Source: a phage
DNA: 64,000 nucleotides
Sequence record: PZ445432.1
Strand: one strand, 5' to 3'
Position numbers and translations under genes: made by a program. Positions 9,680 through 31,957 of the stretch are shown piece after piece (positions within the stretch are counted from its first letter, which is position 1; every line of letters begins with the position of its first letter). Below the pieces are notes generated by a model, which searched no databases, was not told the origin of the DNA, and saw nothing but the letters and a program-made list of their open reading frames with translations.

Positions 9680-11506
9680 TTACTTAAGATTTAAGTGTTT
9701 TACTCTACCAAGAACTTCTTTTTGTTTCCCAGAATTGAAAGGCCTACTGCTAGGGGATCCCAAGTACCCGCAAACCCTACGTGTAACCTCTATTTCTTCA
9801 GACCCACAACTCGGACATACAAACCCACGTTCAGAGGCAACAGATTCACCCATATACCCACAGTTGAAGCACTCATCAATTGGTATATTAACACCAATAT
9901 AATGGCTACATTCTAGCCCCTTATCCACCACATACTCAAGAGCTTTGTGGAACTTTTTCATTTGAGGTAGTTCCACAAATGATATATTACCACCATTAGC
10001 TATTTTGGTAAAATGAGCCTCGTACTCAAATTTAGTATCTGGGGCTACCTTCTCTCTTACGTCCAAATGGTGACTATTAGTGAGATAGCCTTTATCTGTT
10101 AGCCAAGAATACTCTGGGAATCTACGTTCTAGTAATTTATTAAAACGATTACATAGAGACTCACTAGGAGTAGCGTATAAGCTAAATCCAAGATTAGTCT
10201 CATTAGCTTTAACTTCGCAACGATTTTTTAGGTGAGTAAGAACTTCTTCTGTAAATTCAATACAATCCCTATGGGTTTGTGGTAGACCAAACATTATTTG
10301 GCACATCTCATAGACCCCAATGTATCCAAGAGATACAGAAGATCTACCCTCAAAAATAGGCCATACATACTCTTCCCCATCTAAACGCACACCAAAACCA
10401 CCGTGCATATAAAGAATAGGGGCTTGTTTAGCCTTAACTTTCTTCAGTCTGTTTAAGAAGAAGTCATGCGCTTCAAAAGCCTCATCCACATATTTGTCTA
10501 GAATATCCCAGAAATCTTCAAAAACCCCATCTGCCTCAGCAGCAACCATAGGTAGATTAATAGACACTACACCTAAATTATTGCGCCCTGCAATTTCTCC
10601 GGAGGGGATAGCAGATAAAAAGCTACGACAACCCATAGGTGCTTTAAAATCACCAGTAACAGCTACAACTTTCTCATAGCTTAAATAGTCCGGGTACATA
10701 CGGGTAGCAGAACACTCAAGTGCTAGCTGTTTTATATCGTAGTTAGGATCGCCTGGATTTTTATTTAACCCTTCTTTAACTGAGAATACTAGTTTAGGGA
10801 AGATAGGGGTTGACTCAGCAGCACCTAAACCTTTAATACGGTTTTGGAGGATGGCTTTCTGAATCATCCTTTCCTCCCACTCCTGTCCTAGCCCAAAGCC
10901 AAGCGTAACAAAAGGAGTCTGTCCATTAGAGTTAAATAATGAATTAGTTTCATACTCTAGGGCTTGGAATGCGTCATAACACTCTTTTTCAGTGAGTTCA
11001 GTAGCATATACAGCAGCTTTCCTTTCATCCTTGAGCCAACGTAGACCACGACCCAGGTGCTTATCATAAGACTTTCTGACATAAGGGGCTAAAACCTCAT
11101 CGATACGATCAATAGAAGTGCCACCATACTGAGCACCAGATACTTGGGCAATAATCTGAGCAGTGATTGCACATGCAGTAGTTATGGATTTAGGAGTTTC
11201 AATATTTGCATTACCAATTTTAGTACCATTCTTCAGCATGCCACCAAGGTCTACTAAACAACAGTTAGTGTATCCCTGTGCCCTGTAATCCATATCATGG
11301 ATGTGTATTTTACCTAGATTATGGGAGTCTAATAGATGTTTAGGTAATTCTTGTGCTACTAAATACTTGTTGATTTCTCCAGCTAATAAGTCTCTTTGGG
11401 TATGGAACATCTCACTAGGCTTATTAGCATTATTATGTTGTAAGTCCTTATCAGCAGTTAGAGTGAGCAGGCCTTTGCAATTCTCAATTAATTCATTCTC
11501 TGTCAT
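9680..11506 (-). CDS. nrdD: anaerobic ribonucleoside-triphosphate reductase
   Basis: C-terminal glycyl-radical motif RRVCGYLG and CxxC...CPSC zinc site; 608 aa. Confidence 0.9.
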   Translation of the reverse strand: MTENELIENCKGLLTLTADKDLQHNNANKPSEMFHTQRDLLAGEINKYLVAQELPKHLLDSHNLGKIHIHDMDYRAQGYTNCCLVDLGGMLKNGTKIGNANIETPKSITTACAITAQIIAQVSGAQYGGTSIDRIDEVLAPYVRKSYDKHLGRGLRWLKDERKAAVYATELTEKECYDAFQALEYETNSLFNSNGQTPFVTLGFGLGQEWEERMIQKAILQNRIKGLGAAESTPIFPKLVFSVKEGLNKNPGDPNYDIKQLALECSATRMYPDYLSYEKVVAVTGDFKAPMGCRSFLSAIPSGEIAGRNNLGVVSINLPMVAAEADGVFEDFWDILDKYVDEAFEAHDFFLNRLKKVKAKQAPILYMHGGFGVRLDGEEYVWPIFEGRSSVSLGYIGVYEMCQIMFGLPQTHRDCIEFTEEVLTHLKNRCEVKANETNLGFSLYATPSESLCNRFNKLLERRFPEYSWLTDKGYLTNSHHLDVREKVAPDTKFEYEAHFTKIANGGNISFVELPQMKKFHKALEYVVDKGLECSHYIGVNIPIDECFNCGYMGESVASERGFVCPSCGSEEIEVTRRVCGYLGSPSSRPFNSGKQKEVLGRVKHLNLK

Positions 11507-11696
11507 TGATTATTTCCTCAATAAACTTTATAGCTACTTTTGGTTCAATATTGAAGAATTCCGTAGCGCCGTCAAAATCTTTGTACTGGCAATTCTGCTC
11601 TTTAAAGTAGTTATGGGCTAATTTTTCTATTCGAACTGCACTACTATATTCTCCAATTTCAAATACTTTAATTTTTTCGGCATTACTCTTCTCCAC
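11493..11696 (-). CDS. hypothetical protein
   Basis: ORF from track, translationally coupled to nrdD; no radical-SAM Cys motif, so not NrdG. Confidence 0.45.
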   Translation of the reverse strand: MEKSNAEKIKVFEIGEYSSAVRIEKLAHNYFKEQNCQYKDFDGATEFFNIEPKVAIKFIEEIINDRE

Positions 11697-11869
11697 AGAA
11701 TTTTCACACCTATTATACTAAACATTATCCACTATGTCAATTAAAATTTTCTTTCGCCACCTAATACTGTAATATTCCGCGTATAAATAAATGATTATCT
11801 AATACCATACATTTCCCGTTAAAAGCAAGCAAATTTTTTATTTAAATGCAATATCATAGGCTTATTTAA

Positions 11870-11910
11870 AATTGTAGTTGCTTTTTACTGCATATACTGG
11901 TATAATATAT
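11870..11910 (+). promoter_or_regulatory. sigma70 promoter (TTGCTT, 17-bp spacer, extended TGgTATAAT)
   Basis: agttgctttttactgcatatactggtataat upstream of phoH. Confidence 0.5.
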
Positions 11911-11973
11911 TTGTAAGTTGATAAACAAGATCTCTTTGTTGATCCTCTGTTAGAAGCGAAGTACACTATAGGA

Positions 11974-12735
11974 GTGTTATGTATGGGAAAAGCACGTCAA
12001 AAAAGAGAGAACCGCAATGGTTCAAGAAAGCGTGGCAACAAATATGAGAATAACGTAATTCAGGCTGATTTTTCTAATGATTACGCTAACCCAGTTGCTA
12101 AATCCCTAGTAGGTAAAAACCGAGAGCAAAAATCATATATCAATATGATCAAGAACAACACAGTGACTGTGGGTATCGGTGAGCCAGGTACAGGTAAAAC
12201 CTTTATCCCGTCTGTTCTTGCAGCTCAGGAACTCGTAGACATTCACTCAGATATTGAGCAAGTGATCCTCGTACGTCCTAATGAACCTCTAGGTAAGTCT
12301 CTTGGTATGCTTCCTGGTGATCTAGCAGAAAAGCTAGAGCCTTGGTTGGAGCCAATAGCTGATGGTATGAAATGGGCCATCGGTGATCATGCCTATAGGG
12401 GATACGTCGAACGTCAGAAAATTAAATTTTTGGCTATCGAACATGCTCGTGGCAGAACTTTCAACAACTCCTATGTAATTGTCGATGAAGCTCAGAATAT
12501 TTCCGTTGAGGCAATGATTTGTCTCCTAACTCGTGTAGGACAAGACTGCCGTTTAATTATCTGCGGAGATATAGCTCAGAAAGACATTAAAGGTGACTCA
12601 GGTCTAGCACTCCTTATGGAAGTCTATGAGAAATACGAAAATGCCCCCTTCTCAATGATCGAATTGATTGATAACGTTCGTTCTGCTGAGTCTAAAGCAT
12701 TCTACGATATTTTTAAAGACATGGGGAAGGTGTAA
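11974..12735 (+). CDS. phoH: PhoH-like ATPase
   Basis: Walker A GEPGTGKT and PhoH-like length and pattern. Confidence 0.85.
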   Translation: MLCMGKARQKRENRNGSRKRGNKYENNVIQADFSNDYANPVAKSLVGKNREQKSYINMIKNNTVTVGIGEPGTGKTFIPSVLAAQELVDIHSDIEQVILVRPNEPLGKSLGMLPGDLAEKLEPWLEPIADGMKWAIGDHAYRGYVERQKIKFLAIEHARGRTFNNSYVIVDEAQNISVEAMICLLTRVGQDCRLIICGDIAQKDIKGDSGLALLMEVYEKYENAPFSMIELIDNVRSAESKAFYDIFKDMGKV

Positions 12736-12736
12736 T

Positions 12737-12934
12737 ATGGGAGACGTTGTACATCTACACCGAAAAACTAAAATACATCGTACTTCACTGAGTGCTGCTA
12801 ATATGATTACACGTAAGGAAGGGGAAGAAAGTCCTAAGACTACCCTAGCGTGGAAAATTGTAACCTCAAATCCAAATCGGCCCTTCAATTATAACGAACT
12901 AAGTACCTCAATAGATATTCTGCTGAGAACTTAA
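12737..12934 (+). CDS. hypothetical protein
   Basis: ATG one nt after phoH stop; the track ORF starting at 12668 overlaps phoH and is trimmed. Confidence 0.35.
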   Translation: MGDVVHLHRKTKIHRTSLSAANMITRKEGEESPKTTLAWKIVTSNPNRPFNYNELSTSIDILLRT

Positions 12935-13078
12935 GTGGCCAAAAACTAGACTGACAACACAGAAGGCCTGGGTATGAAAGTACTCGGGCCTTTTCTATCA
13001 GAAAATTTTATTTGCCAAATGACTGAGAATAAAGTAAACTATTTCCTAAATCCTGATAACTATAAAAAGGAAAGCCAA

Positions 13079-15412
13079 ATGAGCCATCGCATTGAAAAGG
13101 TAATTAAACGTGACGGTACTGTAGAAGACTTTGCTCCTGAAAAACTCAATGGTTGGGCAGAGTATGGTTGCAAAACAGTTGATGTAAGTTGGTCTGCCAT
13201 TACTATGGCTGCTCAAAAAACTCTGCCTAAAGGGGTTGTAGATTCCGACACTCTGATGGATGCGTTAATTAAAGCTGCTGAAAGTCTTATCAAAGATAAT
13301 CCAGCATACGACGTGCCAGCAAAGGAATTACGTCTTGCGCAGATGCGTAAACGCCTTTATGATTCCTTTGAACCACCTTCTCTACGCTTCTTCCACGATC
13401 ATATGGTTAGTGTAGGTGCATGGGAAGACATGAGTGCATGGATTACCGATGAGCAATTTGAAGCTCTGAATCAGGTTATCGACCATGATCGTGACCGTCT
13501 TTTCACTAGTGGAGGACTGAAACAATTCTTTGATAAGTATTCCCGTCGTAACATAGCCACCGGTGAAATTTATGAAACCCCGCAGTTTGCCTACATGGGT
13601 ATGGCAATGGCGATGCTATCTCAACCTAACTGGACAATTCTCGATGCAATCGACCTATACAACGCAATGTCACTCCACAAAATCAACGTTCCTACGCCGC
13701 CACTGGTTGGTCTGCGCTCTAGTGATCGTGGATTTGCTAGTTGTTGCCTCGTTGATTCCACTGACACATTGGATTCAATCGACACAGCCGAGCACATCGT
13801 TTTTAAAATGGTCGCAGCCAGAGCGGGAATCGGGTATCATCTTGAAAGCAGATCAATTGCTGATCCGGTGCGAAATGGGGCATTCCCGCATTCCGGAAAA
13901 CTGCCATATTATCGACACATTGACCGCTCAGTAAAGGCCAACACTCAGCAAACTCGTGGTGGTTCTGCTACAGTGTCTTATCCATACTTTGATCCTGAAA
14001 TCATTCAGTTGATGCAGGTTAAGCAACAACGTGCTACAGACGAGAATAAAATCGATAAGATGGATTATTCTCTGAGCTTCAACAATCTTTTGTTAAAACG
14101 TTATCTTAAAAATGAAGATATTACGCTAATGTCATACTTCTATGCTCCGGAAGTTCATGAAGCGTTTTATAGTGATGACGAGGCTAAATTTGAAGAAATC
14201 TATGTGGCAGCGGAGAAACGTGTGGCATCTCTTACAAAGATCGACCACGAAGGAAAAACAGTTCCAGCAGCTCCTAAAGTCTCTGCAAAAGAAATCCTAG
14301 ATACTTGGCTGCGTATCCGAATGGAAACAGGACGTATGTATGCCCACCACATTGGGGAATCTAATCGTCACGGTAACTTCCTTGATCCGATCCGTATGAC
14401 AAACCTTTGTGTTGAAATTACTCAGCCTACACGCCCGTTCCATCATATCACGGAACTGTATAAAACGAAAGAGCAGCTTGACCAAATGAAGCCGGAGGAT
14501 ATTGGGGAAGTATCTCTATGTAACTTAGGTGGTGTTGTACTAGGACGCATGGAATCTCTAGCTGAGTGGGAAAAAACTTGCTACATCCTCCTGAAATTCG
14601 TTGATACAATTATTGAAATTCAGGATTATCCGTTCCCAACTATGGAATATACGGCTAAGAAACGTCGTAATGTTGGTATTGGCCTGATGAACGCAGCAGG
14701 TGCAATGGCAGCAGAAGGTCTGGCTTATGAAGGTATTGAAGCCCGTAACTGGATTCACCGTGAGGCTGAAAAACTGTCTTACTTCCTGCATAAAGCCTCT
14801 GTACGCCTAGCTAAAGAACAGGGTGCATGTGAGTGGTTTGATCGTACTAAACCATCTAAAGGAATTCTGGTAATCGACACATACAAGAAAACTGTTGATG
14901 AGCTGGTATCCGTAGGTCTAGAAATGGATTGGGAATCTCTGCGTGCAGATATTCTGAAATACGGTATGCGTAACTCTGTTCTGACTGCGCAGATGCCTGG
15001 AGAAAGTTCCTCTGTACTATTGGGTGTTACCAACTCAATTGAGCCACCTCGTAGGATTGTATCTATCAAGGGTAGTGCAGTGAATAAAGTAATTGCAATT
15101 GCTCCGGGTGCAACTGATTGGGATACTCTCATGAGCTATAAACTGGCCTATGATATTGATCGCACTGAGTGGATCAAATGGAACGCCGTTTACCAAAAAT
15201 TCTTGAGCCAGTCATCAAGTTTCCAGATGTATTATGATTACTCTAAATTCGAGAATGAAATCATTCCTGGCCCAGTAGTAGTTCGTGACTTTATGACTGC
15301 GGTTAAGTATGGTATAAAGACCTGGTATTATGCTAACTTTAACACTGCGAATGGTGGAGGAGCTGGTGAAGAGGCGGCAACAGGTTGTGCATCAGGCGGT
15401 TGTCAGTTATAA
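13079..15412 (+). CDS. nrdA: ribonucleoside-diphosphate reductase large subunit (class Ia)
   Basis: ATP-cone start MSHRIEKVIKRDG preceded by AAGGAAAG RBS; catalytic-core motifs; track start 12974 judged too early. Confidence 0.9.
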   Translation: MSHRIEKVIKRDGTVEDFAPEKLNGWAEYGCKTVDVSWSAITMAAQKTLPKGVVDSDTLMDALIKAAESLIKDNPAYDVPAKELRLAQMRKRLYDSFEPPSLRFFHDHMVSVGAWEDMSAWITDEQFEALNQVIDHDRDRLFTSGGLKQFFDKYSRRNIATGEIYETPQFAYMGMAMAMLSQPNWTILDAIDLYNAMSLHKINVPTPPLVGLRSSDRGFASCCLVDSTDTLDSIDTAEHIVFKMVAARAGIGYHLESRSIADPVRNGAFPHSGKLPYYRHIDRSVKANTQQTRGGSATVSYPYFDPEIIQLMQVKQQRATDENKIDKMDYSLSFNNLLLKRYLKNEDITLMSYFYAPEVHEAFYSDDEAKFEEIYVAAEKRVASLTKIDHEGKTVPAAPKVSAKEILDTWLRIRMETGRMYAHHIGESNRHGNFLDPIRMTNLCVEITQPTRPFHHITELYKTKEQLDQMKPEDIGEVSLCNLGGVVLGRMESLAEWEKTCYILLKFVDTIIEIQDYPFPTMEYTAKKRRNVGIGLMNAAGAMAAEGLAYEGIEARNWIHREAEKLSYFLHKASVRLAKEQGACEWFDRTKPSKGILVIDTYKKTVDELVSVGLEMDWESLRADILKYGMRNSVLTAQMPGESSSVLLGVTNSIEPPRRIVSIKGSAVNKVIAIAPGATDWDTLMSYKLAYDIDRTEWIKWNAVYQKFLSQSSSFQMYYDYSKFENEIIPGPVVVRDFMTAVKYGIKTWYYANFNTANGGGAGEEAATGCASGGCQL

Positions 15413-15419
15413 TAAAAAC

Positions 15420-15448
15420 AAGGAGATCTTCGGGTCTCCTTTTTCTTT
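15420..15448 (+). terminator. rho-independent terminator
   Basis: ggagatcttcgggtctcc hairpin followed by tttttcttt. Confidence 0.6.
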
Positions 15449-15513
15449 GAAATTTTACTTGCTAATCGCTACCAGATTTGCTATAATATCTCCATTAGTT
15501 AAGGAGATTAGTT

Positions 15514-16029: not shown

Positions 16030-16037
16030 GAGAACTA

Positions 16038-24016: not shown

Positions 24017-24028
24017 GGAGTAAAAAGA

Positions 24029-24517: not shown

Positions 24518-24546
24518 TTTCATAAATTAATGAGAGGAAGCGAAAT

Positions 24547-25200: not shown

Positions 25201-25201
25201 T

Positions 25202-25993
25202 TAATAAATTAGAGAACAGCGGGCCGATTACGCTGAGTGCAGAATCCAAACCGGAGTGCATTGAATAGAGTCGGTGGGTTAGTTGTAAAACTAGTACACA
25301 GTGGGCGGCAATCCCGGTTAGTGGCTAGAACGTGTAAAATGGGGCGTCTGAAACCTCTCCCCTAAACTCTTCTCTAGTTTATAAATAGTGGGGTGTGGAA
25401 ATCACTTATGTAGTAACACTGCCGATCTAGTATAAACGGTATTATCAAGCCGTAACTGGTGGAAGATGTAGGTTCGAATCCTACGATCGGTAAGAACTGG
25501 ATAACTGGTGCTTTTAACGTAAAAGCTTCCGAGGTTAGTTGCGCACTGCCTAAACCACGCGGTAGTTGGTTCCAGACTAACCAACCAGTCTGCTGAATAG
25601 TTTTATTACGATTTAACTATGTCCAGGCTAAAGAAGAACTTTAGAAGGTATTCTAGGTGGTGAAGTTTTTCCTCCATATCGGAGTAGTTTTTCAAGCTAC
25701 CAACAAAGTGGGAAATGCTGACATGAGAGATGTCACTAATGGTGCACAATAGCACAGGTAATTCGCGATAACTCCTGTTGAGTAGCAGCAAAAGGCGGGA
25801 AGTCATGACCCCAAGCCTAACCGAGTCCTCAATATACCGCAGGACATAACCACTAAGTCACCCTGACTTAAACTGGAAAATAATAGACGTTACTGTATTT
25901 TGTCTTGAAATACTTAATGAGTGAGACTTATGACTCTCCCGGTATCGTCTGTATTTTTAAGAGTTTTTACGAGAGTTCTTAAAAATACTTAAA
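25202..25993 (+). ncRNA. candidate non-coding RNA region (ORF-free, promoter-driven)
   Basis: ~800 nt downstream of a consensus promoter with no plausible plus-strand ORF; contains hairpins and one tRNA-like element. Confidence 0.3.
25421..25492 (+). other. tRNA-like element (canonical T-arm and acceptor pairing, other arms unresolved)
   Basis: gtaggttcgaatcctac T-arm; gccgatc/gatcggt acceptor; D and anticodon arms did not fold canonically by hand. Confidence 0.35.
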
Positions 25994-26068
25994 CGGGGTG
26001 TAGTCTAAGGGAGAGGCAGGAGTCTTCTAAATTCCTTTATGCAGGTTCGAATCCTGTCACCTCGGCCA
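25994..26068 (+). tRNA. tRNA-Arg (anticodon UCU)
   Basis: hand-folded cloverleaf: acceptor cggggtg/cacctcg, D stem gtct/aggc, anticodon loop cTTCTaa, T-arm gcaggttcgaatcctgt, encoded CCA. Confidence 0.8.
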
Positions 26069-26102
26069 ATTTTATTAACTGTAACTAAAACAAAGGAAAT
26101 AT

Positions 26103-27050
26103 ATGTTTAATACTAAAAATATGAAAGAACTGACTTCTGAGCAAAAAGTAATTCGCACTATTAAACGTTGGGGTATTGGTTCTGTAGTTGGTTTAGCAGG
26201 TTTAATCCTAGCTTTTAATTCATATACTATTGTTTCTGATGGTACAGTTAAAACCCAAACATTTCTGGGTAAAGTAGATCCTAACCCAGTATTACCTGGT
26301 TTCCATCTTGTAAACCCATTTGCATCTTTCGATACTTTTAGTACAAAAGATATTGCTGTAAAATTAGATAAACTTCAGGTTCCTAGCCAGGATAAGTTTA
26401 AATCCACTGTTGACCTGACTGTTATGTTGCAGTTTGATGGTTCTAAGGCACCGATCAACCGTATTAATGCAGGTACTCAGGATCAGGCGTTAGACAAATA
26501 TGTTACTGAAAAATTACTGTCTACCATCCGTGAGTTTGGTAAGTCTGTACCTAAAGCACAAGATTTGTTTGATGCTAAAATTCAAGCACAATTACAAACT
26601 GCAATTCAACAGGAAGTTGAAGAGTATGCACGCCCTTATGGTTACACAGTTAAGCAAGTGTTCCTTCAGGATATTACATTGCCACCGGTAATTATGGAAC
26701 AGGTACAGAATACCAAAGTTCGTGAAGAACAAGTTAATGCTGCGAAAGCTGAATTGGCTCGTGTTGAACAAGAAGCACAGCAGAAGGTTAAACAAGCAGA
26801 AGCAGATCGTGAAGCTCGTAACAACCAAGCTATTGCAAACGAACGTGATGCAGATGCTAAACTGTATGCAGCTAAGAAAGAAGCCGAAGCTAACGCCGCT
26901 CTGCAACGTACTATTACTCCTGAGATGATTCGCTGGAAACAACTAGAAGTTGAAATGACTCGTGCTCAGAAGTATCAAGGTGGTGTGCCTCAGACTGTAG
27001 TAGGTACTGGTTACGATGGTCAAATGATCATGGATATGCGTAACAAGTAA
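26103..27050 (+). CDS. SPFH (band-7 / HflK/C-like) domain membrane protein
   Basis: N-terminal TM segment, SPFH-like core, C-terminal coiled-coil QEAQQKVKQAEADREARN. Confidence 0.65.
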   Translation: MFNTKNMKELTSEQKVIRTIKRWGIGSVVGLAGLILAFNSYTIVSDGTVKTQTFLGKVDPNPVLPGFHLVNPFASFDTFSTKDIAVKLDKLQVPSQDKFKSTVDLTVMLQFDGSKAPINRINAGTQDQALDKYVTEKLLSTIREFGKSVPKAQDLFDAKIQAQLQTAIQQEVEEYARPYGYTVKQVFLQDITLPPVIMEQVQNTKVREEQVNAAKAELARVEQEAQQKVKQAEADREARNNQAIANERDADAKLYAAKKEAEANAALQRTITPEMIRWKQLEVEMTRAQKYQGGVPQTVVGTGYDGQMIMDMRNK

Positions 27051-27073
27051 TAGTTACACGTAATCTTCGAAGT

Positions 27074-27114
27074 AAGCCCTGTGTTCCCTGGAGAGCGCAG
27101 GGCTTTTCTGTTTT
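27074..27114 (+). terminator. rho-independent terminator
   Basis: aagccctg...cagggctt hairpin followed by ttctgtttt. Confidence 0.65.
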
Positions 27115-27264
27115 AAGGTAGAGGATAAGTGTGTCTCTTTGGTCACTCAGCTATGACAAATACTTTACACTATATCACATTGAAAATCAAGTGGGGATAA
27201 CAATTTTGGGGTCTATCCACTTACCTGCTACCCTTAAGCATCCTGTTATTTTCCTCTAAAAAGT

Positions 27265-27308
27265 TAAAAAATTCAATTGCTTGAATGCTAAATTCTCTGT
27301 ATAATATA
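27265..27308 (+). promoter_or_regulatory. conserved early sigma70 promoter
   Basis: aaaaaattcaattgcttgaatg...ctgtataat. Confidence 0.55.
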
Positions 27309-27337
27309 CTTATAAATTTGAGAGAGAGGAATCTAGT

Positions 27338-27856
27338 ATGACTGTTGATGAACTAACAGAACATCTCTTATCTAGAGGGTTTGATACAGATAAGTATCAT
27401 TGCTGGTTAAGTCCGGAAGGATGGCTAACAGTCCCGTTGTATGACTTCTCTGGGATGTTGAGAGGCTATCAGACTTATAATCCTTCTGCTCCAAAAGGTC
27501 ATGGTAAGTGCCCCTTTGAAGCTAAATATTTTACTTATTCAACTACACAGTGTGTATGGGGATTAGAAACTCTCAATGGAGATGAAAAAGTAGTATTGAT
27601 TGCTGAATCTGTATTTAAGGCAGTTGCGTTACATAACGCTGGTTATCCAGCCCTGGCAATGTTGGGTTCTTCCCCCGGAAAAGCATTGTTAAAGCAATTG
27701 AAATTATTACCTTTTAAATTGGTAGCTGTCGGAGATAATGATCCTGCGGGTGAAAAATTTGCTAGAAAATTAAACGGCTTTGTTTCTCCTGTAGATGTAG
27801 ATGAGATGTCTACCGAAAACTTGAAAAATTTTCTTGCTATGAAGCTAAATTTCTAA
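27338..27856 (+). CDS. hypothetical protein
   Basis: ORF from track. Confidence 0.5.
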   Translation: MTVDELTEHLLSRGFDTDKYHCWLSPEGWLTVPLYDFSGMLRGYQTYNPSAPKGHGKCPFEAKYFTYSTTQCVWGLETLNGDEKVVLIAESVFKAVALHNAGYPALAMLGSSPGKALLKQLKLLPFKLVAVGDNDPAGEKFARKLNGFVSPVDVDEMSTENLKNFLAMKLNF

Positions 27857-27864
27857 TATAATAT
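27830..27864 (+). promoter_or_regulatory. sigma70 promoter for the tRNA cluster
   Basis: ttgcta, 17-bp spacer, tataat, embedded in the 3' end of the preceding ORF. Confidence 0.45.
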
Positions 27865-27876
27865 ATTTATAAATTC

Positions 27877-27965
27877 GGAAGAATAGCATAACGGTATTGC
27901 AGCAGATTGCTAATCTGTCGGTTTGAAATATAGCCTTGTGGGTTCGATTCCCACTTCTTCCGCCA
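27877..27965 (+). tRNA. tRNA-Ser (anticodon GCU), type II
   Basis: acceptor ggaagaa/ttcttcc, anticodon arm gcaga-ttGCTaa-tctgt, long variable arm, T-arm gtgggttcgattcccac, CCA. Confidence 0.8.
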
Positions 27966-27971
27966 AATTCT

Positions 27972-28049
27972 GGTTCTCAAGCTCATATGGTATGAGCACC
28001 CAGCTCATAACTGGAAGGTACGTAGGTTCGAATCCTCGGGGAGCCACCA
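27972..28049 (+). tRNA. tRNA with CAU anticodon (Met or Ile2)
   Basis: anticodon loop ctCATaa; D stem gctc/gagc; acceptor ggttctc/gggagcc with G-U pairs; T stem imperfect; CCA. Confidence 0.6.
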
Positions 28050-28068
28050 AATTAAATAAGGACAACTA

Positions 28069-28257
28069 ATGGAATTATTCATAGTTTCTGTTAAATTTGC
28101 ACAAGATAGAGAACGTTCGGATGAGTTTAAACAAGGGTACAGACTAGTAAAGGCTACATCTGAACTCCATGCTATGGACAAAGTAGTAGACTATATGTAT
28201 AATGTAGAAGATGTTTACTACGTCAATGCTTTAGAAGCCTCAAAAGTAATTGACTAA
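28069..28257 (+). CDS. hypothetical protein
   Basis: ORF from track. Confidence 0.45.
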   Translation: MELFIVSVKFAQDRERSDEFKQGYRLVKATSELHAMDKVVDYMYNVEDVYYVNALEASKVID

Positions 28258-28266
28258 GGAGACTAT

Positions 28267-28452
28267 ATGTCTAAGTTTCAAGAACTCAAGCAAGAGCTAG
28301 AAGAATGTGCCTGCCCTGAGTGTAGAGGAATTGGTGAAAGTTCTGATGCAGAAGCAGTGGATACTTTTTGCAATATCTGGGTTTGCCCAAATTGCAAGGG
28401 TACAGGTATTAATCCTAACTGTGGTATTTCTCTAGATATTGAAAGAGGATAA
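28267..28452 (+). CDS. small Cys-rich zinc-ribbon-like protein
   Basis: CACPEC...CNIWVCPNC paired Cys motifs. Confidence 0.45.
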   Translation: MSKFQELKQELEECACPECRGIGESSDAEAVDTFCNIWVCPNCKGTGINPNCGISLDIERG

Positions 28453-28552
28453 TACCTGTGAAACTAAAAGATTATTATATTGGTTGGTTTGTGGGACTAG
28501 TAGTAGGATTTTCACTAGGCTATAATATGTATCAACTAATAAACTGATTACA

Positions 28553-28627
28553 TGGGGGTGTAATCGAATTGGCATAGGTACTGTACTTAAAATTCAGGTT
28601 TTGTGGGTTCGAATCCCAGCGAGGCGT
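28553..28627 (+). other. tRNA-like element (unresolved fold)
   Basis: gtgggttcgaatcccag T-arm; no canonical acceptor partner found by hand. Confidence 0.3.
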
Positions 28628-28675
28628 AACTGCCTGGTGTGATAGAGGCATCATTCCACTAATATTGGAAAACTA

Positions 28676-28906
28676 ATGAAACGAAAATTAAAAAAATCTT
28701 ATATAATTAAGATAAATAAGCTAAGAAGTAGGGCAAAAGGATGGCCACTTCGGATATTAATTGCGGATAACCATATTAGATACCATGCGGAACAACGTCA
28801 TTATAAACAGTGGGAGTCATACTGCCGCTCAAAAGCAGGTCGTTTAGATGGATCTTATGAGTTTCTATTTGGTAAGAAGCCTACTAGAGTAGCTTTAGGT
28901 AATTAA
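28676..28906 (+). CDS. hypothetical basic protein
   Basis: ORF from track. Confidence 0.4.
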   Translation: MKRKLKKSYIIKINKLRSRAKGWPLRILIADNHIRYHAEQRHYKQWESYCRSKAGRLDGSYEFLFGKKPTRVALGN

Positions 28907-28992
28907 TACTTGGAAGAGCAAATCGAATTGGCGACGAAAACCGCTTGGAAAGTGGCTGACCGGTAAAACGGCTTGAGAGTTCAAATCTCTCC
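28902..28992 (+). tRNA. tRNA-Ser (anticodon GGA), type II
   Basis: acceptor ggaagag/ctcttcc, anticodon loop ttGGAaa, long variable arm, T-arm gagagttcaaatctctc, CCA. Confidence 0.8.
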
Positions 28993-29004
28993 TCTTCCGC
29001 CAAA

Positions 29005-29099
29005 CAATTTATATGGTAGGTCAATCCAACGGCTGGCGCTGGACTCCGACTTGAAATCGGTTGATCGTAGTGATACGGTGTAAGGGTTCGATCCCCTTA
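29005..29099 (+). tRNA. tRNA-Ser (anticodon UGA), type II
   Basis: acceptor ggtaggt/acctacc, anticodon loop cTTGAaa, long variable arm, T-arm aagggttcgatcccctt, CCA. Confidence 0.75.
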
Positions 29100-29465
29100 C
29101 CTACCTCCAAATCTTGAAGTATGCCGGAATCGGTAGACGGGGCTGCCTAAAAGGTTTATAGGGAACATCCACTCCCTGCAACATACCTCATAAAGCGGCT
29201 GAGATAAATGGTCTATCTCGTGAAGGTTCAAGTCCTTCTGCTTCTTGATACATCTATGGCTCAAAGTGTAACGGTGCTATTTGATGCTCTTGGTAAGACT
29301 TCCCCGACATGCGTTCGGGAGTAAGCTGCTAAGACTAGAGTAGAAGAGTTTCTGAGAGCCGCCACAATTGAAAATTCGTACTCGTCTTGAGCTGCGTGCA
29401 ATAGGAGATAACTTGATTAGTATTCTAGAACATGCTAATTGAGGATGGTTTCGCTAACCCTGCGA
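29100..29465 (+). ncRNA. candidate structured RNA region including a tRNA-like T-arm (29212-29228)
   Basis: ORF-free 365 nt between tRNAs; gaaggttcaagtccttc T-arm-like hairpin; 13-bp inverted repeat ccacaattgaaaa/ttttcaattgtgg (29353-29365 and 29457-29469). Confidence 0.3.
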
Positions 29466-29542
29466 GTTTTCAATTGTGGCTATATCATAATTGGTTAATG
29501 ATCCTGATTGTGAATCAGGCCTATGTGGATTCGAATTCCACT
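29466..29542 (+). tRNA. tRNA-His (anticodon GUG)
   Basis: acceptor gtggcta/tagccac, D stem tcat/atga, anticodon arm cctga-ttGTGaa-tcagg, T-arm gtggattcgaattccac, CCA. Confidence 0.8.
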
Positions 29543-29577
29543 AGCCACCCCAAATTAACTTAAATAGGAAATAAAAT

Positions 29578-29775
29578 ATGGCTGATTTCTGCAAACAATG
29601 CTCCATTGATATGTGGGGCAGAGATACTGGTGATCTTTCTGGTTTGATTACAGAAGCCGAAGTCAAAGAAGGTTATGGTGCAGTTGTGGTTTGCGAAGGA
29701 TGCGGAGTTATTCGAGTAGATCATGAAGGCAAACGTTTAGAAGAACCGGAAAATTTAGGAGAAACAAATGAGTAA
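29578..29775 (+). CDS. small zinc-ribbon-like protein
   Basis: CKQC ... CEGC paired Cys motifs. Confidence 0.45.
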   Translation: MADFCKQCSIDMWGRDTGDLSGLITEAEVKEGYGAVVVCEGCGVIRVDHEGKRLEEPENLGETNE

Positions 29776-30004
29776 TGCTTTAATTAGTGAAATTATGTTA
29801 ACACGTCTTGCAGAACTGCAAACTCTTCGAGATGAATCTCAGAATAACTTATCCTACCATAAACAGATGGTAGATACTCTTACTACTCGTATTGAAACTT
29901 ACGAGCGTGATATTGCAGCATTACAAGCTCTTTTCTCCGTATCAGCACCAGATACGTTAGAACAGCCTGCTGTATCTCAGCCAGTAGAGACAGCATCTAG
30001 TTAA
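29768..30004 (+). CDS. hypothetical coiled-coil protein
   Basis: ORF from track. Confidence 0.45.
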   Translation: MSNALISEIMLTRLAELQTLRDESQNNLSYHKQMVDTLTTRIETYERDIAALQALFSVSAPDTLEQPAVSQPVETASS

Positions 30005-30013
30005 TAGCATTTT

Positions 30014-30089
30014 TGGAGTGTAGATCAATTGGCAGATCGTCGGCCTCTGACTCCGAAGGTTCCTGGTTCGATCCCAGGCACTCCAGCCA
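30014..30089 (+). tRNA. tRNA-Gln (anticodon CUG)
   Basis: U1-A72 acceptor tggagtg/cactcca, D stem gatc/gatc, anticodon loop cTCTGac, T-arm cctggttcgatcccagg, CCA. Confidence 0.75.
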
Positions 30090-30095
30090 AATAAT

Positions 30096-30171
30096 TGGAG
30101 AGTAGTGTAACGGTTAGCACAACGGCCTTTGACTCCGTTAATGGTAGGTTCGATTCCTCCTTCTCCAGCCA
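30096..30171 (+). tRNA. tRNA-Gln (anticodon UUG)
   Basis: U1-A72 acceptor tggagag/ttctcca, anticodon loop cTTTGac, T-arm gtaggttcgattcctcc, CCA. Confidence 0.75.
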
Positions 30172-30178
30172 AAATAAT

Positions 30179-30253
30179 GCGTGATTAGTTCAGTGGCTAG
30201 AACAACTGGCTTCCAACCAGTAGACACGAGTTCGACTCTCGTATCCCGCACCA
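30179..30253 (+). tRNA. tRNA-Gly (anticodon UCC)
   Basis: anticodon arm actgg-cTTCCaa-ccagt, D stem gttc/gaac, T-arm acgagttcgactctcgt, CCA; one U-C mismatch in acceptor. Confidence 0.75.
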
Positions 30254-30267
30254 AATAAGGAATCTCT

Positions 30268-30519
30268 ATGCACGTTTTTGAGTTTCGTAATAAAAGTACC
30301 AATAAACGAGTTATTGTTATTGGGGAAACATATCGAGCATATGAACAAACTGACGGCTCTGTTATCTTGAATGATGAGAAAGGGGGTTTTAGCTTTTATC
30401 CAGAAGAACCTTATGAAGAGTTTCGAAAACAATTTAACCTAGACTGGAGAAAGCATTTAAACACTGTTGCTTCATCTGTAGTACTGCCAACTACCAGTAC
30501 TGTACTATCTAATGGCTGA
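30268..30519 (+). CDS. hypothetical protein
   Basis: ORF from track. Confidence 0.45.
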   Translation: MHVFEFRNKSTNKRVIVIGETYRAYEQTDGSVILNDEKGGFSFYPEEPYEEFRKQFNLDWRKHLNTVASSVVLPTTSTVLSNG

Positions 30520-30676
30520 TAACCTAAAAGTCAAGATCGACAAACAAAAGAAACGTGTAGAAGTAGAGATTGGTGAAGAACGTGTAGCCTTCACCTTTGA
30601 ATTTCTACAACAAATGGCAATGACAGTTATGACTGATAAGTCTCCTGTTATTGAAAAAGAAATCCCGTTGAAATAA
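30512..30676 (+). CDS. small hypothetical protein (54 aa)
   Basis: hand-translated MADNLKVKIDKQKKRVEVEIGEER...; followed by cccgttgaaataacggg hairpin. Confidence 0.3.
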   Translation: MADNLKVKIDKQKKRVEVEIGEERVAFTFEFLQQMAMTVMTDKSPVIEKEIPLK

Positions 30677-30684
30677 CGGGTTCT

Positions 30685-30771
30685 GCTGGGTTGGCAGAAT
30701 GGTTGAATGCACCTGATTTGTAATCAGGAGGAGTAATCCCGTTGCAGGTTCGAATCCTGTGCCCAGCACCA
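30685..30771 (+). tRNA. type II tRNA, anticodon read as UGU (identity uncertain)
   Basis: acceptor gctgggt/gcccagc, anticodon arm cctga-ttTGTaa-tcagg, 15-nt variable arm, T-arm gcaggttcgaatcctgt, CCA. Confidence 0.55.
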
Positions 30772-30785
30772 ATTTAAGGACTATT

Positions 30786-30953
30786 ATGTTTAAACTGTTA
30801 GTAGTTATCTGGTATAGTCAATCAAATAGAGCGAATACCTCCCACGTTATAGACTTTACTACTAAAAATGAAGCTGAAAAAGCATATGCTAATTTAATAG
30901 AACGCAATAAAGAATCTCGTAGTATAGTTTATGAAGTGACTAAACTTTATTAA
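30786..30953 (+). CDS. hypothetical protein
   Basis: internal ATG with AAGGA RBS; track ORF start 30759 overlaps the tRNA and is trimmed. Confidence 0.4.
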   Translation: MFKLLVVIWYSQSNRANTSHVIDFTTKNEAEKAYANLIERNKESRSIVYEVTKLY

Positions 30954-30992
30954 AAATTCATTTGCTTTCCCTCTTATTTATTGTTATAATAT
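30952..30992 (+). promoter_or_regulatory. conserved early sigma70 promoter
   Basis: aaaaattcatttgctttccc...ttgttataat. Confidence 0.55.
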
Positions 30993-31020
30993 TTATATAA
31001 ATTAATGAGAGGGAAACCAA

Positions 31021-31311
31021 ATGAAACGTTATCTTTCTGTTATGTTCCAAACCGGCGGCCAAAGATACACCTATGAATTTCCACCTTCCTGGAAAATCAG
31101 GGAAGGTGATCAAATAGTTGTGTTGACACCGCGTGAAGAATATAAAGTAGTGACGGTTAAACAAGTATTTCCAAAAGATCATGAACCAGCTATAGGCATC
31201 CGATATAAGATGATTCATGGCGTGGTTCGTCAAGTACCACGAACTGAGGTAGAAGTAGATAATACTGGAGAAACTAAATTCCATTATACTTCTTACTTAG
31301 ACAGTGTGTGA
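31021..31311 (+). CDS. hypothetical protein
   Basis: ORF from track. Confidence 0.5.
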   Translation: MKRYLSVMFQTGGQRYTYEFPPSWKIREGDQIVVLTPREEYKVVTVKQVFPKDHEPAIGIRYKMIHGVVRQVPRTEVEVDNTGETKFHYTSYLDSV

Positions 31312-31326
31312 TGTAAATATTTTAAT

Positions 31327-31403
31327 GCTTCGGTAGCTTAGCGATCTAAAGCACTCGGCTGATAACCGAGAGATCAGGGGTTTAAATCCCTCCCGGAGTA
31401 CCA
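31327..31403 (+). tRNA. tRNA-Ile (anticodon GAU)
   Basis: acceptor gcttcgg/ccggagt with G-U pairs, D stem gctt/aagc, anticodon arm ctcgg-ctGATaa-ccgag, T-loop tttaaat, CCA. Confidence 0.75.
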
Positions 31404-31499
31404 AATCTAGGAATTAAGACTATGCGTCCAGGAAAGTTTAAAAAAGCTAGTTGGTCTAAAGAGTACAAAGAATACTTACTTAGCCTAGTAAAACGTAAT

Positions 31500-31575
31500 A
31501 GTTAGTTGGCAGAGTGGTTATGCGCCTCCTTCATACGGAGCGACTACAGTGGTTCAAATCCACTACTAACTACCA
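31500..31575 (+). tRNA. tRNA with CAU anticodon (Met or Ile2)
   Basis: acceptor agttagt/actaact, anticodon loop ttCATac, T-arm agtggttcaaatccact, CCA. Confidence 0.7.
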
Positions 31576-31588
31576 AACAGGAGATCTA

Positions 31589-31957
31589 ATGAAAGCGTAT
31601 CAAAATCTTAAATCTGGCGTAATTAATATTGTTCATAATAATCAGATTATTCAACTGTACTCTAAAGATGGTGAACTTAAACAAAAGGTTCTAGTTGAAG
31701 ATCTAGATGGTATCACACCTCATTTTGACCCAGAATCCTTTCGTGAAGTCAAAGTGGAAGTCGCCCCTCAAATTGAAGGTGGTCAACACCTAAATGTCAA
31801 TGTGTTAAGTCGTGATCAGCTTTTGGATGCGCAGAAACATCCTGAAAAATACCCTCAATTAACTATCCGTGTTTCAGGGTACGCTGTGCGTTTTAACGCA
31901 CTGACGCGTGAACAGCAGAACGACGTTATTAGTCGTACATTTACTCAGGCGATGTAA
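31589..31957 (+). CDS. grcA: autonomous glycyl radical cofactor GrcA(YfiD)-like protein
   Basis: C-terminus [10 protein letters not shown]...[34 protein letters not shown] closely matches E. coli GrcA as recalled; AGGAG RBS; track start 31514 overlaps the tRNA. Confidence 0.8.

What the first reader, a model, noticed from the sequence alone, without database searches (positions are those of the whole stretch)
9680..31957. Phage carries two glycyl-radical proteins (NrdD and a GrcA-like spare part) but no recognisable activase
nrdD at 9680-11506 ends with RRVCGYLG. A separate 122-aa ORF at 31589-31957, sitting inside the tRNA cluster, has a C-terminus nearly identical to E. coli GrcA/YfiD as I recall it ([10 protein letters not shown]...[21 protein letters not shown]...). 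No NrdG-like radical-SAM activase (CxxxCxxC) was seen. The phage therefore seems to rely on host activases, and may use the GrcA-like protein to repair oxygen-cleaved pyruvate formate-lyase, implying adaptation to anaerobic or microaerobic gut infection. The high similarity suggests recent acquisition from an enterobacterial host.
Basis: partly seen in the sequence, partly recalled or inferred. Interest (0 to 1): 0.6.

Follow-up and report, generated by a model that had tools for sequence, protein, structure and literature searches.

The report
T5-like phage NrdD and GrcA-like genes
This T5-like coliphage really does carry an anaerobic ribonucleotide reductase and a small GrcA/Y06I-type "spare-part" glycyl-radical protein without any activating enzyme of its own, but this gene set is already annotated and known in T5-like and T4-like phages, and the gene is an old, phage-adapted one rather than a recent capture from the host.

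Summary
The window is Escherichia phage HildyBeyeler (Bas33, genus Tequintavirus, T5-like). Both ORFs exist as described. nrdD (9680-11506, minus strand, 608 aa) passes the NrdD family cut-offs. The 122-aa ORF (31589-31957) has a PFL/GrcA-type glycyl-radical domain that is 74% identical to E. coli GrcA over its last 74 residues, with an identical RVSGYAV motif.

No glycyl-radical activase is encoded anywhere in the 111.6-kb genome. A motif scan, phmmer searches and an NrdG profile all came back negative, and the profile's positive control worked.

Dependence on host NrdG and PflA is therefore the best inference. There is biochemical precedent for the small protein only: T4 Y06I is activated by PflA.

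The "recent acquisition" claim fails:
- Nucleotide identity to E. coli grcA is only 70.6%.
- GC and GC3 match the phage, not the host.
- The gene is conserved across Markadamsvirinae under purifying selection (dS 0.64, dN/dS 0.08).
- Its nearest relatives are other phage proteins.

Related phages add context. In jumbo phages the GrcA-like gene sits between nrdD and nrdG. This suggests it keeps PFL working so that PFL supplies formate, the reductant of NrdD.

Overall this is a known kind of gene set that is already annotated, so interest is low to moderate.

The parts
9680..11506 (-). nrdD: class III (anaerobic) ribonucleoside-triphosphate reductase catalytic subunit, 608 aa, no ATP-cone. Key residues: Cys82 and Cys293 (aligned to E. 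coli C175 and C384), a Zn-ribbon CxxC...CxxC at residues 546-567, and the radical glycine Gly580 in RRVCGYLG (codon 9767-9769).
   Evidence: dN/dS is 0.017 against the phage VAH1 copy.
31589..31957 (+). GrcA/Y06I-type autonomous glycyl-radical protein (T5.056 homologue, bas33_0127), 122 aa. The N-terminal half (residues 1-55) is a predicted small beta-sheet. The C-terminal half (residues ~61-122) is a PFL-type glycyl-radical domain.
31868..31888 (+). Codons for RVSGYAV (residues 94-100), the glycyl-radical loop. It is identical to PflB 731-737 and GrcA 99-105. The predicted radical site is Gly97 (31877-31879).
   Evidence: Read directly from the sequence and from the alignments.
31579..31583 (+). 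Shine-Dalgarno AGGAG, 5 nt upstream of the ATG at 31589.
31500..31575 (+). tRNA-Met(CAU), the last tRNA gene found in the window, 13 nt upstream of the GrcA-like ORF. In the T5 annotation it is co-transcribed with that ORF from promoter P11.
32039..32353 (+). Context, not part of the system: a T5.055-like 104-aa ORF with a GTG start and its own AGGAG. It is the only real ORF in the genome with a CxxxCxxC string. I examined it as a possible activase and rejected it.
11493..11696 (-). Context: a 67-aa remnant of a T5orf172-type endonuclease gene abutting the 5' end of nrdD. There is no nrdG on either side of nrdD.

Best explanation
HildyBeyeler, like other T5-like phages, encodes two functional glycyl-radical proteins and leaves their activation to the host.

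(1) NrdD. This is an E. coli/T4-type class III ribonucleotide reductase, which I take to be formate-dependent. In anaerobic cells, host NrdG (radical-SAM) would install its radical at Gly580. It then makes dNTPs for phage DNA synthesis when the phage's own class Ia NrdAB cannot work.

(2) The 122-aa protein. This is a Y06I/vs.6-type autonomous glycyl-radical cofactor. Host PflA would install a radical on Gly97. The C-terminal domain then replaces the oxygen-cleaved C-terminus of host pyruvate formate-lyase and restores PFL activity. After T5 has degraded the host chromosome the cell can no longer make new PflB or GrcA, so a 122-aa phage-encoded spare part is a cheap way to keep PFL running.

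PFL yields acetyl-CoA (and hence ATP via acetate kinase) and formate, and formate is the reductant of this type of NrdD. The two phage genes therefore plausibly belong to one anaerobic/microaerobic dNTP-supply strategy.

What is shown here: gene identities, integrity, purifying selection, absence of any activase gene, and linkage of GrcA-like genes to RNR genes in other phages.

What is inferred: activation by host NrdG and PflA, PFL repair, and the coupling through formate.
For: Identity and integrity:
- NrdD exceeds the NCBIfam equivalog cut-offs and has the catalytic Cys residues, the Zn-ribbon and the Gly loop.
- The small protein has RVSGYAV and a C-terminal 60 aa that are 80% identical to both PflB and GrcA.
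- Its model superposes on the YfiD NMR structure 6OWR and on the PFL Gly-radical domain at rmsd 2.7-2.8 A over 51 residues.
- It shows full-length homology to T-even vs.6 (which I take to be T4 Y06I) and falls in the same PHROG, phrog_1209.
- Y06I is activated by PflA and rescues cleaved PFL (PMC8683613).

Both genes are selected:
- dN/dS is 0.08 for the GrcA-like gene (0.10 in the N half, 0.05 in the C half) and 0.017 for nrdD.
- The GrcA-like gene has a strong SD. The T5 annotation places it in a promoter-to-terminator unit.

No activase:
- Searches were all negative on the whole genome.
- The host K-12 carries nrdG and pflA.
- In a 40-row spread sample of the 2273 phage records with an NrdG match, I recognised none as T5-like.
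- PMC3653736 notes that many phages carry nrdD with nrdAB but no nrdG.

A host-like activase-docking tail:
- The 32 residues around the radical Gly are 26/32 (HildyBeyeler, VAH1) and 25/32 (Spc35) identical to E. coli NrdD in the NrdG-less T5-like phages.
- The figure is 18/32 for T4 and 20-21/32 for five jumbo-phage NrdDs that have their own NrdG.

Link to RNR in other phages:
- The GrcA-like gene lies directly between nrdD and nrdG in Munch-like jumbo phages, and with one further ORF in K64-1-like jumbo phages.
- It lies within the nrdD...nrdG cluster in Serratia phage BF and in a 330-kb contig.
- It lies next to nrdAB in Vibrio phage D479 and in one other contig.
- Formate as the NrdD hydrogen donor: Mulliez et al. 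1995, listed in the reference list of PMC13450708.
Against: - No experiment on the T5-like proteins is known to me.
- From memory, not verified here: T4 NrdD needed its own NrdG (gene 55.9) when expressed in E. coli. If so, cross-activation by host NrdG cannot be taken for granted.
- The small protein scores below the curated GrcA equivalog cut-off (TIGR04365, 121.5 against 170 bits), because its N-terminal half differs from bacterial GrcA.
- In T5-like and T4-like genomes the GrcA-like gene is not adjacent to nrdD (about 20 kb away in this window). The operon-type linkage comes from other phage lineages, several of which are related to one another.
- The tail-mimicry comparison rests on few lineages that are not independent.
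- The clade joining T5-like proteins with other phage GrcA-likes has under 50% bootstrap support.
Confidence: 0.7

Rival explanations
1. The small protein is not a repair part but a modulator. It would act as a competitive substrate or sink for PflA, or as a partner of intact PFL that redirects or throttles host fermentation, rather than rescuing cleaved enzyme.
For: - It carries the exact PflA recognition loop RVSGYAV, so it must compete with PflB for PflA.
[quoted passage not shown] GrcA function may therefore be broader than repair of the cleaved form.
- The N-terminal half is phage-specific and under selection (dN/dS 0.10). Its predicted beta-sheet has no PDB match.
Against: - The homologous T4 protein restores PFL activity in vitro.
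- Linkage to RNR genes in other phages fits a need for PFL output (formate) rather than PFL inhibition.
Confidence: 0.12
2. The phage does encode an activase, but a non-canonical one that sequence methods miss. Candidates would be the Cys-rich T5.055-like protein co-transcribed with the GrcA-like gene, or one of the many small ORFs of unknown function.
For: - The 104-aa ORF at 32039-32353 contains C-x3-C-x2-C and lies 81 nt downstream, in the same annotated T5 transcription unit.
- It is a conserved family, phrog_4499.
Against: - Across the family the first Cys of that string is not conserved. The invariant motif is CxCxxC plus RRHH in a basic N-terminus.
- At 104 aa it is too short for a radical-SAM core, and it has no Pfam or NCBIfam match even at E<=1.
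- It scores as noise against the NrdG profile (E 4.9).
- It occurs only in T5-like phages and not next to GrcA-like genes elsewhere.
- No other CxxxCxxC string exists in any frame of the genome.
Confidence: 0.04
3. One reading: the GrcA-like gene is a recent capture from an enterobacterial host.
For: - Identity to E. coli GrcA in the radical domain is 74-80% at the protein level.
- Such exchange does occur in phages: the last 185 nt of T-even (RB51) vs.6 are 181/185 identical to E. coli grcA.
Against: - Nucleotide identity is 70.6%, with heavy synonymous-codon divergence.
- GC and GC3 are those of the phage.
- The protein is equidistant from GrcA and PflB, at 48/60 each.
- The gene is present throughout Markadamsvirinae, with dS 0.64 between genera.
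- The best non-T5 matches are jumbo-phage proteins. No bacterial protein exceeds about 83% identity, and then only over about 57% of the query.
- The T5-like clade does not nest inside bacterial GrcA.
Confidence: 0.03
4. Without NrdG, the phage nrdD is an inactive relic, or has a role that does not depend on the radical.
For: - No activase gene lies beside nrdD, and a degraded endonuclease gene abuts it.
- The locus is mosaic: two nrdD lineages that are 60% identical occur among Tequintavirus phages.
Against: - The 608-codon ORF is intact, with all catalytic and radical-site residues.
- dN/dS is 0.017.
- Both divergent lineages keep VTRRVCGYLG and a host-like tail.
Confidence: 0.05

Closest known systems
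Bacteriophage T4 Y06I (gene vs.6), an autonomous glycyl-radical cofactor
   Same: - Similar size (120-122 aa) and the same N-terminus (MKAYQ).
- 53% identity over the full length (E 4e-41) and the same PHROG, phrog_1209.
- An identical glycyl loop.
- Both sit in a lytic coliphage that also carries nrdD.
- Y06I is activated by host PflA and rescues O2-cleaved PFL.
   Different: - The 3' half of the T-even gene is 97.8% nt-identical to E. coli grcA, and the last 60 encoded residues are identical. The T5-like gene is only 70.6% nt-identical, shows 12 substitutions in those 60 residues, and is equidistant from GrcA and PflB.
- T4 has its own NrdG; T5-like phages do not.
E. coli GrcA (YfiD), PDB 6OWR
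   Same: - A C-terminal glycyl-radical domain with 74% identity over 74 aa.
- RVSGYAV is identical.
- The model matches 6OWR.
   Different: - The N-terminal ~50 residues do not align by BLAST.
- The score is below the TIGR04365 cut-off.
- Phage-type signature residues (DAQ and DVISRTFT, against DAV and DVIARTFT) are shared with jumbo-phage homologues.
E. coli / T4 class III ribonucleotide reductase NrdD-NrdG
   Same: - NrdD is 52-53% identical to E. coli NrdD and 49-52% identical to T4 NrdD.
- It is ATP-cone-less like T4 NrdD, which has 605 aa and Gly580.
- It has the same Cys, Zn-ribbon and Gly motifs.
   Different: - There is no nrdG in the genome.
- The Gly-loop tail is closer to the host's than in phages that carry their own NrdG.
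The nrdD - grcA-like - nrdG clusters of jumbo enterobacterial phages (Munch/SE_PL-like, K64-1-like, Serratia phage BF)
   Same: - Homologous GrcA-like proteins (53-59% full-length identity in the alignment; 61-69% in the aligned local segment).
- Phage-type signature residues.
- Co-occurrence with NrdD.
   Different: There the three genes are contiguous and include an activase. In HildyBeyeler the two genes are about 20 kb apart and no activase is present.

Membership tests
Autonomous glycyl-radical cofactor (GrcA/YfiD/Y06I 'spare part') | A small stand-alone protein (~80-130 aa) whose C-terminus is a glycyl-radical domain (PF01228) | tested here: met
   122 aa. Gly_radical matches at 3.8e-18 over residues 62-103, scoring 66.4 bits against a cut-off of 22.2.
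Autonomous glycyl-radical cofactor (GrcA/YfiD/Y06I 'spare part') | A PFL-type radical loop RVSGYAV and high identity to the PflB C-terminus that it replaces | tested here: met
   RVSGYAV is identical. 48/60 residues are identical to PflB 701-760 and 48/60 to GrcA 68-127.
Autonomous glycyl-radical cofactor (GrcA/YfiD/Y06I 'spare part') | Reaches the curated NCBIfam equivalog score (TIGR04365 spare_glycyl, 170 bits) | tested here: not met
   121.5 bits, with only residues 50-122 matching. The N-terminal half is phage-specific. It is therefore not an equivalog of bacterial GrcA by that rule.
Autonomous glycyl-radical cofactor (GrcA/YfiD/Y06I 'spare part') | Full-length homology to the experimentally characterised phage member (T4 Y06I, gene vs.6) | tested here: met
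   53% identity over residues 1-122, E 4e-41. Both cover phrog_1209 end to end. The comparison used the RB51 vs.6 sequence; that vs.6 is Y06I is from my own knowledge.
Autonomous glycyl-radical cofactor (GrcA/YfiD/Y06I 'spare part') | Fold of the glycyl-radical domain | tested here: met
   The AlphaFold model has mean pLDDT 72.9. Foldseek gives 6OWR at E 1.4e-5 and PFL structures 1CM5/2PFL at rmsd 2.7-2.8 A over 51 residues. The N-terminal beta-sheet has no PDB match.
Autonomous glycyl-radical cofactor (GrcA/YfiD/Y06I 'spare part') | Radical installed by PflA, and restoration of activity to O2-cleaved PFL | not testable with these tools
   This needs biochemistry. Precedent exists only for YfiD and Y06I.
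Class III ribonucleotide reductase, catalytic subunit NrdD | Exceeds the curated family scores | tested here: met
   NF006732 794.9 bits (cut-off 657), TIGR02487 537.2 bits (cut-off 326), Pfam NRDD 5.9e-158.
Class III ribonucleotide reductase, catalytic subunit NrdD | Radical glycine motif, C-terminal Zn-ribbon, and the two active-site cysteines | tested here: met
   RRVCGYLG with Gly580; CFNC...CPSC at 546-567; NCC at 81-83 and MGCRSF at 291-296, aligned to E. coli C175 and C384.
Class III ribonucleotide reductase system (NrdD + NrdG) | A cognate radical-SAM activase NrdG encoded with NrdD | tested here: not met
   No NrdG or PflA homologue and no usable CX3CX2C motif exists in any frame of the 111.6-kb genome. 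The system is incomplete on the phage side.
Glycyl-radical-enzyme activase (radical SAM), tested for the T5.055-like ORF at 32039-32353 | A conserved CX3CX2C cluster motif within a radical-SAM core of about 150-250 aa | tested here: not met
   The first Cys is not conserved and the invariant motif is CxCxxC. The protein is 104 aa. No Pfam or NCBIfam hit appears, and the NrdG HMM gives E 4.9.

The most novel reading that the evidence does not exclude
Phage GrcA-like proteins are not a stray host-derived accessory. They are a component of phage anaerobic dNTP synthesis: they keep host PFL alive after oxygen pulses so that it goes on supplying formate, the reductant of phage NrdD.

T5-like phages represent the stripped-down version of this module. 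Both radical installations are outsourced to host NrdG and PflA, and the NrdD glycyl-loop tail is held close to the host's sequence so that host NrdG recognises it.
Probability: 0.35. Interest if true: 0.5.

Novelty: already known. Interest (0 to 1): 0.25.

Why it matters
As stated, the finding confirms existing annotation. T5-like phages carry nrdD and a PFL-related glycyl-radical gene, T4's homologue was characterised in 2001, and nrdD-only phages were catalogued in 2013.

Two points might be worth a specialist's attention.

First, nobody appears to have shown which enzyme activates NrdD in phages that lack NrdG. This is directly testable, and this phage belongs to the BASEL collection with an E. 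coli K-12 host.

Second, GrcA-like genes are repeatedly linked physically to nrdD/nrdG in jumbo phages. I found no paper in the searchable library that discusses this. The linkage gives a concrete hypothesis (PFL, then formate, then NrdD) for why lytic phages that destroy the host chromosome carry a PFL spare part. That bears on phage replication in the oxygen-fluctuating gut.

Tried and rejected
1. The T5.055-like ORF as a cryptic activase. It is the only ORF with CxxxCxxC. I rejected it because that string is not conserved in the family, the protein is too small, and it has no family match.

2. The 132-aa ORF downstream of nrdD (9182-9580) as an NrdG substitute. It has no Pfam or NCBIfam match, carries only scattered Cys residues, and belongs to a PHROG of unknown function.

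3. An activase in the 5 kb that the window lacks relative to the deposited genome, or in the rest of the genome. I scanned the whole record and found nothing.

4. Deciding whether the T5-like gene derives from grcA or from the 3' end of pflB. It is equidistant from both (48/60 each; at the 12 positions where they differ, 3 residues are GrcA-like, 3 PflB-like and 6 neither). A neighbour-joining tree gives no supported placement beyond a 100% T5-like clade lying outside the bacterial GrcA group.

5. Literature checks. Searches for T5 nrdD/nrdG, for T4 gene 55.9 cross-activation, and for phage GrcA together with NrdD found nothing relevant in the held library. My recollection that T4 NrdD needs its own NrdG therefore remains unverified.

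6. A full co-occurrence table of GrcA-like, NrdD and NrdG across the 50,697 phage records could not be built, because the search tool returns at most 60 rows.

Full report
SOURCE. A megablast of window 31000-33000 gives a 100% match to Escherichia phage HildyBeyeler (Bas33; MZ501074.1/NC_105119.1; Demerecviridae, Markadamsvirinae, Tequintavirus; host E. coli K-12). It is about 95.5% identical to phage T5. The window maps to the record as follows:
- Window 1-28618 equals record 43049-71666.
- Window 28598-63518 equals record 76686-111607.
- Window 63519-64000 equals record 1-482.
The window therefore lacks 5,040 bp of the tRNA region and runs through the record's end into its start. To judge "no activase" I rebuilt the whole 111,607-bp record from three annotated stretches.

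OBSERVATION: nrdD. nrdD is a 608-aa ORF on the minus strand at 9680-11506.
- It scores Pfam NRDD 5.9e-158 plus Gly_radical.
- It scores NCBIfam NF006732 794.9 bits (cut-off 657) and TIGR02487 537 bits (cut-off 326).
- It is 52% identical to E. coli NrdD from E. coli residue 98 onward, so it lacks the ATP-cone, as does T4 NrdD.
- It keeps NCC (81-83) and MGCRSF (291-296), aligned to E. coli C175 and C384. It also keeps the Zn-ribbon CFNC...CPSC (546-567) and VTRRVCGYLG with Gly580.

OBSERVATION: the GrcA-like ORF. This ORF (31589-31957, plus strand, 122 aa) starts at an ATG with AGGAG 5 nt upstream. It begins 13 nt after tRNA-Met, the last tRNA gene found in the window. The longer GTG-started reading (31514) would overlap the tRNA, so I discard it.
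- Pfam Gly_radical matches at 3.8e-18.
- BLASTP against E. coli GrcA gives 55/74 identities (74%), E 3e-39, over residues 51-122. Against the PflB C-terminus it gives E 2e-33.
- The loop RVSGYAV (Gly97) is identical in all three proteins.
- By sequence the best PDB matches are YfiD (6OWR, 2e-30) and PFL.
- An AlphaFold model (mean pLDDT 72.9) places the C-terminal half on 6OWR and on the PFL glycyl-radical domain at rmsd 2.7-2.8 A over 51 residues. The N-terminal half is a small beta-sheet with no PDB match.

NO ACTIVASE. Three independent tests on all six frames of the whole genome, and of the window, were negative.
1. A regular-expression scan for CxxxCxxC gave two hits: a 31-aa junk segment and the 104-aa ORF at window 32039-32353.
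2. phmmer --max with E. coli NrdG and PflA gave nothing better than E=2.1, while GrcA as a control query found the 122-aa ORF at 1.6e-31.
3. I built a profile from six NrdG sequences (E. coli, T4, Vibrio phage VMJ710, a Felixounavirus, an Enterococcus phage and a Clostridioides phage). It found E. coli PflA at 3.1e-17, so it reaches across activase families. Its best hit in the phage was E=2.2.

The 104-aa ORF is the T5.055 homologue, a real conserved family (phrog_4499, T5-like phages only). Across that family the first Cys of the string is replaced, and the invariant residues are RRHH...CxCxxC in a basic protein. It has no Pfam or NCBIfam match at E<=1. It is not a radical-SAM enzyme.

At the level of the phage collection, 2,273 records hold an NrdG-like gene. 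In an evenly spaced sample of 40 of them I recognised no T5-like phage, although T5-like phages make up more than 400 records. Dwivedi et al. [quoted passage not shown] That is the layout seen here.

IS THE SMALL GENE A RECENT HOST CAPTURE? No.
- The last 60 codons are 70.6% nt-identical to E. coli grcA and 73.3% to pflB. Of the 48 codons that encode the same amino acid as grcA, only 22 are the same codon.
- GC is 39.0% and GC3 29.3%. The window has GC 39.0% and phage nrdD has GC3 30.7%. E. coli grcA has 47.9% and 41.4%.
- The protein is equidistant from GrcA and PflB, at 48/60 each.
- Homologues of 88-98% identity fill the T5-like phages. The score then drops from 225-253 bits to about 130 bits, first to jumbo-phage proteins and only after that to Vibrio, Aeromonas and Photobacterium GrcA.
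- The alignment shows residues shared by T5-like and jumbo-phage proteins but not by bacterial GrcA: DAQ against DAV/DAI, and DVISRTFT against DVIARTFT.
- A neighbour-joining tree gives a 100% T5-like clade outside the bacterial GrcA group, though the deeper nodes are unsupported.
- Against an Epseptimavirus copy, dS is 0.64, dN is 0.049 and dN/dS is 0.08. The N half gives 0.10 and the C half 0.05. The gene predates the split of these genera, and the whole protein, including its phage-specific N half, is under selection.
- By contrast, the T-even homologue vs.6 (RB51) is 181/185 nt-identical to E. coli grcA over its 3' end, with an abrupt boundary. Recent exchange with the host does happen in that lineage, but not in this one.

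WHAT IT IS.
- The protein is full-length homologous to T-even vs.6 (53% identity, E 4e-41, same MKAYQ start) and shares phrog_1209 with it and with GrcA. I take vs.6 to be T4 Y06I.
- Y06I and YfiD are the only validated "spare parts". PflA installs the radical, and the small protein then complexes with oxygen-cleaved PFL and restores activity (Wagner et al. 2001, as summarised in PMC8683613).
- By NCBIfam's rule the phage protein is not an equivalog of bacterial GrcA (121.5 against 170 bits). I therefore file it as a Y06I-type phage member of the autonomous glycyl-radical cofactor kind rather than as GrcA itself.

HOW IT LIKELY WORKS.
- Host K-12 has nrdG and pflA.
- In anaerobic or microaerobic cells, host PflA would radicalise Gly97 of the phage protein, which then repairs oxygen-damaged host PFL. 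Host NrdG would radicalise Gly580 of phage NrdD.
- From general knowledge of T5 biology: T5 degrades host DNA early in infection, so the infected cell cannot re-synthesise PflB or induce grcA. This gives a rationale for carrying a 122-aa substitute.
- Formate, the PFL product, is the hydrogen donor of E. coli-type NrdD (Mulliez et al. 1995, listed in the reference list of PMC13450708).

Two further results bear on this model.

(i) Gene neighbourhoods. In every non-T4, non-T5 GrcA-like locus I sampled, the gene lies beside RNR genes:
- nrdD, GrcA-like, nrdG contiguous in Munch/SE_PL-like phages and related contigs.
- nrdD, GrcA-like, DUF4326, nrdG in K64-1-like phages.
- Inside the nrdD...nrdG cluster in Serratia phage BF.
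- About 2.6 kb downstream of nrdG in a 330-kb contig.
- Immediately after nrdA-nrdB in Vibrio phage D479, and divergent from nrdAB in another contig.
Several of these loci are related to one another, so they amount to perhaps five or six independent arrangements.

(ii) The tail around the radical glycine. I compared the 32 residues around that Gly with E. coli NrdD.
- The NrdG-less T5-like phages score 26/32 (HildyBeyeler, VAH1) and 25/32 (Spc35). Their overall identity to E. coli NrdD is only 53-54%, and the two T5-like lineages are only 60% identical to each other.
- T4 scores 18/32, and five jumbo-phage NrdDs with their own NrdG score 20-21/32.
- This pattern fits a constraint imposed by the host activase, but the sample is small.
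nrdD itself is under strong purifying selection (dN/dS 0.017 against VAH1), which argues against it being a relic.

CAVEATS.
- Activation by host enzymes, PFL repair and the formate link are inferences.
- I recall, but could not verify in the held library, that T4 NrdD required its own NrdG when expressed in E. coli. Cross-activation of a phage NrdD by host NrdG therefore needs a direct test.
- In this phage the two genes are about 20 kb apart and are not obviously co-regulated.

NOVELTY.
- Both genes are annotated in this very record ("anaerobic ribonucleoside-triphosphate reductase" and "putative formate acetyltransferase").
- Relatives are annotated as "autonomous glycyl radical cofactor", and T5.056 as PFL-related.
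- The kind was characterised biochemically in T4, and nrdD-only phages have been described.
The finding is therefore correct but already known, and one of its inferences (recent acquisition) is wrong. The RNR linkage and the host-like NrdD tail are modest new leads. I found no paper on them in the searchable library, which is limited evidence of absence.

Noticed in passing
window ~28554-28660 (junction at 28598-28618): The window lacks 5,040 bp that are present in the deposited HildyBeyeler genome (record 71667-76685), including 13 further annotated tRNA genes and small ORFs. The junction lies in the shared T-arm sequence GGGTTCGAATCCCA of tRNA-Leu(TTA) and a tRNA-like remnant. This looks like recombination between tRNA genes, either as a deletion variant or as an assembly collapse. 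The window also runs from the record's end (63518) straight into its start (63519).
   Followed up: partly
L007:1501-1863 (phage RB51 vs.6) compared with L005:1067-1450 (E. coli grcA): The last 185 nt of the T-even vs.6 gene are 181/185 identical to E. coli K-12 grcA, and identity falls abruptly to about 40% upstream. The gene is a chimera of a phage-specific 5' half and a 3' half recently exchanged with the host. This is the opposite of the T5-like gene.
   Followed up: partly
window 9680-11696; L025 (Spc35), L026 (VAH1): Tequintavirus phages carry two nrdD lineages at the same locus. HildyBeyeler/VAH1-type and Spc35-type NrdD are only 60% identical in protein, while the downstream genes are about 95% nt-identical. 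Only 40 of 425 matching records cover the HildyBeyeler nrdD query by megablast. The HildyBeyeler type is associated with a T5orf172 endonuclease gene, which is intact at 223 aa in VAH1 and reduced to a 67-aa remnant at window 11493-11696. This suggests allele replacement driven by a homing endonuclease.
   Followed up: partly
window 32039-32353 (+), overlapping ORF 31957-32118: The T5.055-like ORF (104 aa, GTG start with its own AGGAG) is annotated in HildyBeyeler only as a 58-aa protein from an internal Met, yet the full length matches phrog_4499. The family is restricted to T5-like phages, with invariant RRHH and CxCxxC in a basic N-terminal half, which may indicate a small metal-binding nucleic-acid-binding protein. 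In Yersinia phage phiR2-01 (P0077) the upstream 53-aa ORF's N-terminus is fused in frame to it.
   Followed up: partly
L015, L017, L023, L024 (6001-6363); L014:5442-5804; L021:4001-4366; L019:6001-6372: In jumbo enterobacterial phages the GrcA-like gene lies between or beside nrdD and nrdG. In Vibrio phage D479 it directly follows nrdA-nrdB. I found no paper in the held library that discusses this recurrent linkage to ribonucleotide reductase genes.
   Followed up: partly
window 25420-25493 (+): ARAGORN calls a tRNA-Ser with anticodon ACT here. The GenBank record annotates no tRNA at this place; it overlaps a small hypothetical CDS, bas33_0081. It is probably a false positive or a tRNA-like remnant.
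   Followed up: no
L028:1168-1689 (Providencia phage PSTCR5, Priunavirus): A more distant member of Demerecviridae has a GrcA-like C-terminal domain whose last 62 residues are 74% identical to the window protein. Its annotated CDS is 173 aa, with a different and longer N-terminal part. The N-terminal region of these proteins is therefore variable between lineages.
   Followed up: no
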